From: Rhizophagus irregularis
Lineage: Eukaryota
Direction of reading: 5' to 3'
DNA: 64,000 nt
Assembly (NCBI RefSeq): GCF_026210795.1
Contig: NC_089434.1
Location: 1-64,000 of the forward strand
Position numbers and translations under genes: made by a program. Positions 6,636 through 9,600 of this stretch are shown here, piece by piece (position 1 is the first letter of the stretch; each line of letters starts with the position of its first letter). Below the pieces are notes generated by a model. It was not told where the DNA came from. It saw only the letters and a list, made by a program, of their open reading frames with translations, and made no database searches.

Positions 6636-9600
6636 GGGTTTTGTTTTTTATCGCACCCGCGATATGTCGCAAGGGCATGCGCCTCCTAATTTTATTGGCG
6701 AAAAATTTTTTTGTGGCGCGTCAAATTTCAATTGTAACACGATCTTAAAAAATTTTTTTTTAAAAAATTCTTCGATCTGTTTTGGTTTCTTTGTCCCTAC
6801 CCTTTAATAAAAACAAACCTTTACATTTCTTTTCTAATTACGTTTTCATTAAAAACATTGTTTATCATGTTTATATTCGATGGTTGGTTTCTTTTTTCTT
6901 CTTTTTTGTCTTGTTTTGAAAACTACACTAAAGGTTTTTTTTTTCTTTTTTCAGGTCCTTTGCGTTGTGGATTTTGACGTTAATATCATTTGAAAAGAGA
7001 CTTTTCGTTCTTTAAAGACTCGGTAGGTGAAGTTTAATACACCGTGTTTAATAACCTTAAAAACACTATTAACGATTTTTTTTTTACTTTAGATTCTTTC
7101 ACTTTAGATTCTTTTCACAACGGAAGTTTAATGTCAATTTCGTTACTCTTCCTTCTTCTCATTTGGAAAAAATATTGGTAAGTGTCGGTTATATAGACTA
7201 TGAACTAATTTAAACGGCCTCTTCAAAGTTTTTGTATATGTATTAACCTCTTGTAAACAATATTAACCAATTTTCTTCTTTTTTTTAGGTTCTTTAATTT
7301 GATTTCCTTTCTAAAGAAGACCTCTTACTTTCCACTTTGGCGAAGTCTCGGTAGGTGTTATTCAGGTTGTTGGTGTACGCGAAGCTTTTAGAAACAACAC
7401 TAACAGGTGTTTTTTCTTTTTTTTTAGGTTTTTTTTTCGTTGTAAAAGCTAAGATTTACCGCCAATTGTGTTTTTTTTCATTTCGGTAGGTGTTATATAG
7501 GTTAATGGTGCATGTAATAACCTGTTATAAATGATATTAATGAGTTTTTTTCTTTTTTTAGGTTCTTTCACGTTGTTAAAGCCAAACTTTAAAGCTGATC
7601 TCATTTTTAAGGTACCTTTGTTACCTTTCACTTCGGTAGGCGTTATATGGGCTAATGGTGTATGTAATAACCTATTATAAATGATAATATTAATGAGTTT
7701 TTTTTTCTTTTTTTAGGTTTTTTTCACGTTGTTAAAGCCAAACTTTAAAACTGATCCCATTTCTAAGGTACCTTTGTTACCTTTCACTTCGGTAGGTGTT
7801 ATATGGACTAATGGTGTATGTAATAACCTATTATAAATGATAATATTAATGAGTTTTTTTTTCTTTTTTAGGGGGTTTTCACGTTGTTAAAGCCAAACTT
7901 TAAAGCTGATACCGTCGGACGAAACATACCAGGTAATAAAGGACTAGTAGAAATTGTTTGGCGGAAAAATTCTAACGCTCTACCAGGATAAATGGTATAA
8001 ATCCTTTTTTCTCCATTTTTTTGGTACCTTTGTTATTTTTTACTTCGGTAGGTGTTATATGGGCTAATGGTGTATGAAACAGCCTTTGGAAATGATTAAA
8101 GTATATAAATTAGGAACCAGGATGCTTAACAATTTTTTTAATAAAGTAATTAATTACATACACATAAAATTCTTATATAGAAAAGGTCTAATAATTAATG
8201 ATTAATCCTTACTTTTCTTACTTTCTTGATGGTATTGTCTTTTTATTTTGATAGAGAGTTGGTAAATATTATATTAAAAGACTTCTTTTATTGCAGAAGC
8301 TTAATTTTAATTTTAAATCTTGTTAAAAAAAGACTTTTCATTTTCGGTAAAGTGTTGATAGGACTAATAGTATATGTTATTGCTTTTATAAATGTCATTA
8401 ACTTGGTTTTAGTTCTGAATAAACGAAAATATTAGTGTGCGGACAATGCTTAATTTTATTGGCTAGTAAATATATGAATTGTGATTGTAACACAAAAGTT
8501 ACTATTTGTTTACCTAATTTTTTTGTACGTCCCTTTATTTTTTTTTGCTTTTTACACACCTTATACCTTTGTTTACTACAATGCAACAAGAAAACTCTGA
8601 ACCAGTTTTGTATCAAGGAAAGGCTTTCACCACTTGGAAGCAAGCATTTGAAACTATTGAAAGTCGGGCAAAGCAGCAAGGGTTTAATATCATATATAGT
8701 CGTGTTGAGAAAAAATCTGATGGAACTTTTCGTACGTACTGCACAATGTGAACATCATGGTAATTATGTTACAAAATCCAATAAAGAGACAACAACAAAA
8801 CGTCTAGGCTGTGCTTGGCATATTAATTTATCAGAACCTACCTCTAAAAATCCTTTTAAATATGTTTATATTACAACACTTCATGATATCCATTCACATA
8901 ATCTTAATCCTAATATCATTCAATTTGGAGATAACAAATACATACCTCCTGAAATTATGAAGGAGATTGAATTTCTTACTATTAAATGCAGAATGGGAGC
9001 TGCTACACAAAGACAATATCTTGAAGCAAAGTTCCCAGGACAAATAATTTATGATAATGATTTGTATAAAGCAATTCAACATTTTCGTCCACAAAATAAA
9101 GATGATAGTAATGATGCAGCTAAATTGTATACGAAATTACTTGAATTATCACAAAATAATCCAATGTGGAAGGTTGCGATCAAATTTGATAATAATAATA
9201 CTCTTACACATTTATTCTGGATGACGCCATCTCAGTTAGAATTATGGTATCGGTATTCAGATATTGTGGTACAAGATGTAACTTGTAAAACCAATAGGTA
9301 TGAGATGGCTTTAAGTTTATTTATTATTCTTGATGAAAATCGGAATGTAAGACTTGTTGCACAAGCATTATTAATTGATGAAACAAAAGAATCACATGAA
9401 TGGTCATTTGAACAACTCAATTTAGCAACAAATAATGTGTATCCACAAGTAATAATGACAGATGCAGATCCAGCTGTACATGCTGCGATTAGGTCTACAT
9501 TTCCTACCACATACCCGATGCATTGCACTTTTCATATTAGCCAAAATTTGATTAAAAAGGTTCAAAAACTAATTGGAAATAAATTTCAAGAGTTTTTTAC

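What the first reader, a model, noticed from the sequence alone, without database searches (positions are those of the whole stretch)
6636..8400. The long MULE TIRs are themselves intron/microexon arrays pointing inward from both ends
Seen on the + strand: acceptors at 6954, 7092, 7288, 7427, 7561, 7716 and 7871, and donors (GTAGGT/GTAAGT/GTAGGC) at 7023, 7178, 7351, 7486, 7636 and 7792. These give six 70-111 nt introns, each with a branch-like motif (ACTAAC/ATTAAC/ATTAAT) and a T tract; the inner units repeat every ~155 bp. The right TIR (11270-12455) carries the same array on the minus strand, antisense to the transposase. Inference: the Foldback-like subrepeats are spliced units, giving a multi-intron 5' leader and a convergent antisense RNA, and hence possibly self-regulating dsRNA. 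The sequence is unrelated to the hAT array at 54.3 kb, suggesting convergence.
Basis: partly seen in the sequence, partly recalled or inferred. Interest (0 to 1): 0.8.

Follow-up and report, generated by a model that had tools for sequence, protein, structure and literature searches.

The report
Transposon ends built from intron repeats
A fungal jumping gene has long mirror-image ends made of repeated units that each look like a complete intron plus a tiny exon and would likely be spliced if read inward, but the RNA we could test showed no splicing there, so the proposed self-silencing role is unsupported.

Summary
A 5,820-bp Mutator-like element (6636-12455, 9-bp target duplication, ~1.19-kb near-identical ends; its protein matches Rhizophagus irregularis records) has six inward-pointing units per end, each with donor, branch motif, U-tract and AG. 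Shuffles give about 0.1 such patterns and the other strand none.

Related elements show the array is confined to one clade; relatives outside it have short ends with no array. Two other arrays of this design in the window resemble it only at the splice signals.

The inferences are weaker. In three poly(A) runs (two samples) no predicted junction reached three reads, while unspliced reads covered the introns and control introns were detected. The libraries are unstranded, from another strain or paralog, and the transposase is almost silent, so this test is incomplete.

A conserved copy of the terminal motif lies ~130 nt before the start codon, so the mRNA may start after the array. A conserved poly(A) signal precedes the right end. 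One sister family amplified donor-less repeats.

Verdict: an unusual Foldback-type end, likely intron-derived and spliceable; splicing not shown; dsRNA self-regulation unsupported.

The parts
6627..6635 (.). Left target-site duplication (9 bp)
   Evidence: identical to 12456-12464, read from the flanks printed
6636..7825 (+). Left long terminal inverted repeat
   Evidence: 97.9% identity to the right arm over 1,260 aligned columns, 8 differences inside 6636-7822
6636..6765 (+). Conserved terminus shared with short-ended relatives, including the ATTTTATTGG...TGTAACAC motif; likely transposase-binding end and outer promoter (inferred)
   Evidence: 80% to L001 end; score 117 vs shuffles 39+-6 against L004
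6883..6954 (+). Candidate first intron (weak donor, non-canonical branch), 72 nt
   Evidence: same position and length in L001/L002/L012
7023..7092 (+). Intron-like unit 1 (70 nt)
   Evidence: unspliced reads at 7075: 5, 19, 11
7178..7288 (+). Intron-like unit 2 (111 nt)
7351..7427 (+). Intron-like unit 3 (77 nt)
   Evidence: unspliced reads at 7378: 41, 31, 6
7486..7561 (+). Intron-like unit 4 (76 nt)
   Evidence: reads at 7507: 21, 33, 12
7636..7716 (+). Intron-like unit 5 (81 nt), part of the 156-nt tandem
7792..7871 (+). Intron-like unit 6 (80 nt); its acceptor lies beyond the shared repeat
8048..8413 (+). Left-only degenerate units: donor 8048 without a near acceptor (also in L001, L006, L011), acceptor-like sites 8254 and 8296, weak unit about 8347-8413
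8440..8580 (+). Inner copy of the terminal motif, then a pyrimidine tract; candidate inner promoter or binding site (inferred); upstream ATGs at 8446 and 8474
   Evidence: block invariant or nearly so in window, L001, L006, L011; weak similarity to the terminus
8581..10999 (+). MULE transposase gene; two frameshifts (near 8733 and 9727) relative to database protein P0001; predicted intron 10098-10177
   Evidence: PF10551 E 9.7e-19; 100% identity over the 330 residues searched
11032..11044 (.). AATAAA on + just after the stop and AATAAA on - at 11039-11044; candidate head-to-head poly(A) signals (inferred; the hexamer is common in AT-rich DNA)
   Evidence: plus-strand signal in 4 of 4 aligned elements
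11222..12069 (-). Mirror array of six intron-like units pointing inward
11267..12455 (-). Right long terminal inverted repeat
12456..12464 (.). Right target-site duplication (9 bp)

Best explanation
The long ends of this Mutator-like element are tandem arrays of an intron-plus-short-exon unit that likely arose from an ordinary 5' intron behind the terminal promoter and would likely be spliced in an inward non-coding or leader transcript when the element is active. Shown: the anatomy, the splice-signal pattern, restriction of the array to one clade, and variation in unit number between relatives. Inferred steps: (1) the ancestor had short ends with the start codon about 200 nt from the terminus, as in L004; (2) one clade gained an outer terminus plus an intron-bearing unit, leaving a degenerate inner terminus about 130-150 nt before the start codon; (3) the unit was amplified as Foldback-type subterminal repeats and copied to both ends by end homogenisation, which explains the antisense-pointing array without any regulatory purpose; (4) the terminal promoter drives inward RNA that the major spliceosome can process, while the transposase mRNA may start at the inner motif and end at the AATAAA before the right end. 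On this reading little sense-antisense overlap is expected.
For: Pattern far above chance and on one strand only. In 13 of 14 units with an acceptor a YTRAY lies 21-27 nt before the AG, though the branch was not used to pick them; units average 64% identity, range 45-93%. With an anchor inside the intron, 38 of 45 hits keep a donor, 38 a branch motif and 28 an acceptor by strict patterns; the 45 include near-copies and a few spurious hits, and the acceptor pattern missed some real AGs. Seven array-bearing elements form one side of a 100/99 branch against three short-ended ones (14 rows, 4 unlabelled, 3 of 16 loci lacked the aligned region). Two further arrays of the same design (54.6-55.3 kb minus; 16.5-17.3 kb plus) match it only at splice signals. 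Lengths resemble the four RNA-supported introns (64, 80, 85, 114 nt). Inner motif conserved in 4 of 4 aligned array-bearing elements. The outward strand has 13 A-runs of 7 or more and the inward strand none, so oligo-dT capture of outward RNA could explain the unspliced reads.
Against: No predicted junction was listed in any of 4 runs laid (3-read rule), while reads cover the introns: 35 at 7075 against 34 at the last exon base 7022, summed over X21-X23. The same runs give 74-95 reads at a control junction. No junction at the 54-kb array either, at depth 1-5. Conservation extends past the donor (+7 to +13) and into the exon start, so splice sites do not stand out from their neighbours; donors were picked by pattern. 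L001 and L002 each lack the acceptor in 2 of 7 right-end units. L008 amplified about 30-nt repeats with 7 U-tract-AAG sites and no donor over 687 nt. ATG scarcity in exons (2 vs 9.6) disappears against dinucleotide shuffles (3.2, P 0.35). Similarity of the inner motif to the terminus is modest (window P 0.024; L001 about 4 SD).
Confidence: 0.5

Rival explanations
1. Relic introns with a DNA-level job: the unit once was an intron+exon, but it is amplified because it carries transposase-binding or end-pairing sequence (as in Muta1) or by neutral slippage; the splice signals are passengers and are rarely used.
For: No spliced reads, many unspliced. The exon-start word CGTTGTGGA recurs, with at most 1 mismatch, 5-6 times in L001, L012 and L008, where L008's units lack donors. 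Acceptor losses in L001/L002. Muta1 subterminal repeats raise binding and excision (PMC5499845, passages).
Against: Short-ended relatives with 74-76% identical transposase lack the array. The word occurs once at that stringency in the window's arm, and no consistent shared word links termini and units. Three arrays unrelated outside splice signals all keep full intron order and spacing.
Confidence: 0.33
2. One reading: one multi-intron leader spliced onto the transposase, plus a spliced antisense RNA from the right end that pairs with the mRNA and limits the element through dsRNA.
For: The left end continues with a conserved donor (8048) and later acceptor-like sites toward the gene. MuDR starts transcripts in both ends and makes antisense RNA. 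Small RNAs occur at transposon loci in this species (PMC8647823, passages).
Against: No junctions seen. ATGs at 8446 and 8474 would precede the start codon. Candidate poly(A) signals meet head to head at 11032-11044, leaving little overlap. A long inverted repeat gives fold-back RNA by read-through without any splicing (general knowledge).
Confidence: 0.1
3. Exon trap: host transcripts entering from either side are caught by the first acceptor and spliced through the array, so the element borrows host promoters.
For: Strong acceptors face inward at both ends; MULEs often lie near genes in this species.
Against: No host-to-array junction listed; a conserved first donor suggests an internal first exon.
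Confidence: 0.05
4. Chance resemblance in AT-rich repeats with no intron origin.
For: U-tracts are common in this DNA, and tandem copies are not independent.
Against: Shuffle and block-shuffle controls on the non-redundant part, strand asymmetry and three separate arrays.
Confidence: 0.02

Closest known systems
Foldback-type MULEs: Muta1 of Aedes aegypti (PMC5499845, passages) and Tm1/Phantom-like elements (PMC3169594, passages)
   Same: MULE transposase, 9-bp target duplication, long ends with a terminal motif and variable numbers of subterminal repeats
   Different: Their repeats are 12-14 bp (shown for Muta1 to raise transposase binding); here units are 130-200 bp with complete splice signals and the ends are about 1.19 kb
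Maize MuDR (PMC3440606, passages)
   Same: Ends that hold promoters pointing inward, antisense RNA, alternative splicing
   Different: MuDR ends are about 215 bp with no intron array described in the passages read, and the right end drives a second gene; here no gene follows the right array and transcription from the ends is untested
Introners and introner-like elements (PMC11282704, passages)
   Same: Transposon sequence carrying spliceosomal signals, repeated
   Different: An introner is itself one intron that removes itself from host RNA; here many introns lie in tandem inside the ends, all facing inward, so they cannot splice the element out
Splicing-linked transposon silencing in Cryptococcus (Dumesic 2013; title seen only in a reference list; content recalled)
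   Same: A possible link between poorly spliced transposon RNA and RNA silencing
   Different: Nothing tested here; signals in this array are near consensus, not weak

Membership tests
Mutator/MULE DNA transposon | MULE transposase domain | tested here: met
   PF10551 E 9.7e-19, above cut-off
Mutator/MULE DNA transposon | 8-10 bp target duplication | tested here: met
   perfect 9 bp
Mutator/MULE DNA transposon | Terminal inverted repeats | tested here: met
Mutator/MULE DNA transposon | Intact autonomous copy | tested here: not met
   two frameshifts relative to P0001; mutation or assembly error not distinguished
Foldback-type (type 2) long ends | Ends made of tandem subrepeats of variable number | tested here: met
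   156-nt tandem; unit number and type differ among L001, L002, L012, L008
Foldback-type (type 2) long ends | Subrepeats bind transposase | not testable with these tools
   no consistent shared word with the terminus; needs a binding assay
Major (U2) spliceosomal introns | GT donor, branch motif, pyrimidine tract and YAG in order and spacing | tested here: met
Major (U2) spliceosomal introns | Removed from RNA | tested here: inconclusive
   0 of 6 junctions listed, unspliced reads present; unstranded, other strain or paralog, transposase nearly silent
Major (U2) spliceosomal introns | Signals under purifying selection beyond their neighbours | tested here: inconclusive
   mostly kept, but neighbours are also conserved and some copies lost acceptors
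Introner elements | Whole element is one intron, with its own duplication at the exon junctions | tested here: not met
   units are tandem, inside the ends; no strict intron pattern on the exit strand
MuDR-type convergent transcription | Transcription starts in both ends with overlapping sense and antisense RNA | not testable with these tools
   libraries unstranded; no start or end site listed

The most novel reading that the evidence does not exclude
DNA transposons of arbuscular mycorrhizal fungi from different superfamilies (MULE, hAT) have independently built their subterminal repeats from spliceosomal intron plus micro-exon units that are really spliced, using intron density at their ends to control expression, export or silencing of their RNA.
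Probability: 0.3. Interest if true: 0.8.

Novelty: new variant of a known kind. Interest (0 to 1): 0.52.

Why it matters
Foldback subrepeats are understood, where tested, as short transposase-binding sites. Units that are whole introns plus micro-exons would tie transposon end structure to RNA processing and offer a visible route for multiplying introns by tandem duplication. Three such arrays in one 64-kb window suggest a recurring design in this fungus that can be tested with stranded long-read RNA and a genome survey. Eight paper searches listed no description of it. The library lacks most subscription papers, and the transposon libraries in the supplements of PMC8647823, PMC10234402 and PMC11075540 were not opened.

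Tried and rejected
No whole genome is held, so there is no copy number or genome-wide survey.

The run search listed no RNA holder on record; not used as evidence. X11 later showed spliced joints and so behaves as RNA, but it was never laid on the MULE; its 0.32 word share cannot be assigned to a part of the stretch. X24 gave only 46 partial reads.

The two joints (6585>7411 and 7437>6930) are non-canonical and border U-tracts; rejected as splicing. Depth at 10638-10800 comes with loose ends from another gene and is rejected as transposase expression. The idea that reads come specifically from the right end was dropped: they match right-arm letters at 7075, 7641 and 7807 but no row shows the right-arm letter at 7059.

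ATG depletion of exons is not significant against dinucleotide shuffles. Folding: no predicted intron beat its shuffles (z -1.5 to +0.1 for four introns; the fifth input, an L013 stretch, +1.6). Common ancestry of the MULE and 54-kb arrays was not supported beyond splice signals.

Earlier-findings look-ups returned nothing relevant. The first, broad alignment had no searchable block.

Full report
Anatomy. The finding lies in the left end of a Mutator-like element at 6636-12455, flanked by a perfect 9-bp duplication, with inverted repeats of about 1.19 kb that differ at eight places inside 6636-7822. The gene between them has a MULE domain and is 100% identical over the 330 residues searched to a protein named from Rhizophagus irregularis; close relatives come from Diversispora and metagenomes. 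Against that protein the window copy has two frameshifts, near 8733 and 9727. No whole genome was available.

Observation. A strict intron pattern built from recalled fungal consensus finds 8 hits on the inward strand of 6636-7900 and 0 on the other; shuffles give 0.09 on average. The non-redundant part gives 4 against 0.05, or 0.26 with 12-mer blocks kept. In the whole window the pattern hit 27 times: 16 in this element, 5 in the 54.6-55.3 kb array, 3 at 16.5-17.3 kb and 3 elsewhere.

Relatives. One metagenome scan gave 16 loci. L001, L002, L012, L006, L008 and L011 carry homologous inward arrays. L004 has the same terminus with its start codon about 200 nt away and no array; L007 (terminus itself not seen) and the right end of L010 also show none. 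On a 651-column tree of 14 rows, the seven array-bearing rows form one side of a 100/99 branch; four rows had no usable end and three loci lacked the region. The root is not fixed, so one gain is likely but not shown. Across 14 units with an acceptor, mean identity is 64% and 13 have a branch motif 21-27 nt before the AG (donors there were picked by pattern, so their invariance is circular). With an anchor inside the intron, 38 of 45 hits keep a donor, 38 a branch motif and 28 an acceptor (near-copies and some spurious hits included, and the acceptor pattern is too strict). Against the intron reading: positions +7 to +13 and the exon start are conserved too, L001 and L002 each lost 2 of 7 right-end acceptors, and L008 filled 687 nt of its end with about 30-nt repeats of the acceptor and exon start that have no donor.

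Other arrays. The 54-kb array lies in a 1,787-bp hAT-like insert (label inferred from its ends and 8-bp duplication); reads show the empty site. A degenerate array precedes a BED-finger-like ORF (label from recall) at 17.5 kb. Under strict scoring each pair of the three arrays aligns only over branch, U-tract and AG (scores 34-38). That fits independent origins from introns.

RNA. laid about a quarter of three poly(A) runs (two samples, one study) and one further run on 6400-11262; reads from either arm would land there. No predicted junction was listed (3-read rule). Reads cover the introns: 5, 19 and 11 at 7075; 41, 31 and 6 at 7378; 21, 33 and 12 at 7507. The transposase coding region is almost empty, and its own predicted intron is not seen either. 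One search is the control: the same runs show 74-95 reads at a GT-AG junction (53670>53735) and almost no depth on unique DNA at 47.8-49.3 kb, so junction detection works and DNA contamination is low. The 54-kb array showed no junction at depth 1-5. Limits: the libraries are unstranded; reads at 47.5-56.6 kb are mostly 90-99% alike, so the RNA comes from another strain or paralog; and the outward strand of the end has 13 long A-runs against none inward, so oligo-dT may favour RNA that cannot be spliced at these sites. The result argues against steady spliced inward RNA in these samples. It does not test the leader of an mRNA that is itself absent.

Leader and dsRNA claims. A block about 130 nt before the start codon is nearly invariant in four array-bearing elements and repeats the terminal ATTTTATTGG motif. 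In L001 it looks like a decayed terminus (about 4 SD above shuffles; P 0.024 in the window). Two ATGs lie between it and the start codon. The mRNA may therefore start after the array, as short-ended relatives must. AATAAA, the main poly(A) signal of this species (PMC10234402, passages), follows the stop in 4 of 4 aligned elements, with a minus-strand copy beside it in the window. These hexamers are common, so this is only suggestive. Inward RNAs from the two ends would be identical over the array and could pair only where they overlap internally.

Mechanism. Most likely (0.5): an ordinary intron-plus-exon unit behind the terminal promoter was amplified as Foldback-type subrepeats in one clade and mirrored by end homogenisation; it stays spliceable in inward RNA when the element is active. 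Main rival (0.33): the same origin, but kept for a DNA-level role or neutrally, with little splicing. The full leader-plus-dsRNA model gets 0.1.

Known systems. It is a MULE with Foldback-type ends. Muta1 repeats are 12 bp and raise binding and excision (PMC5499845, passages); Tm1 repeats are about 14 bp (PMC3169594, passages); MuDR already shows inward promoters and antisense RNA (PMC3440606, passages); introners are single introns (PMC11282704, passages). End exchange between Mutator clades is described in maize (PMC10401008, abstract and outline). Term look-ups in two papers on this species' transposons found no mention of introns (PMC8647823; PMC11075540; passages only, supplements not opened). 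PMC6829131 was opened only for a cited title. Eight searches (listings only) showed no description of intron-unit subrepeats.

Verdict. Real and unusual structure, new variant of a known kind, function unproven. Interest 0.52; the novel case has probability 0.3 and interest 0.8.

Noticed in passing
window 16480-17290 (+): Third, degenerate intron/micro-exon array (exons about 30 nt, introns 70-80 nt) upstream of a BED-finger-like ORF at 17526; resembles the MULE array only at splice signals. Not tested with RNA.
   Followed up: partly
window 53892-55678: Non-autonomous hAT-like insert with an 8-bp duplication, holding the 112-bp intron-like array at one end; RNA reads show the empty site. Its branch motif sits in the loop of a short predicted hairpin (fold not significant).
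   Followed up: partly
L013 about 1950-2216 (minus strand): Downstream of a related MULE lies an intron-like unit resembling the 54-kb array unit (strict score 66); own end or separate insertion is unknown.
   Followed up: partly
window 14724-14967: Short MITE-like element with the same terminal repeat type as the 54-kb insert and an 8-bp duplication, nested in the 13.3-15.3 kb fold-back repeats (read).
   Followed up: no
L008 2300-3223; L006 1-280: Sister family whose outer end repeats are short acceptor-plus-exon-start units without donors.
   Followed up: partly
window 47500-56600: Reads differ from the window mostly by A>G and T>C (61 and 47 places in X21), so the window copy looks deamination-biased relative to the expressed copy.
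   Followed up: no
window 1-788; 23993-31013: Telomere repeat at the window start; 81-bp satellite with 242-243 bp higher order, interrupted by an 80-bp repeat.
   Followed up: no
window 34557-35627: Long ORF that looks like a Tc1/mariner transposase (recalled) nested between pieces of a hAT-like gene.
   Followed up: no
L006 about 900-920; L011 about 555-570: These relatives have an AG two bases before the start codon after the pyrimidine tract, absent in the window and L001; a possible extra leader intron there.
   Followed up: no
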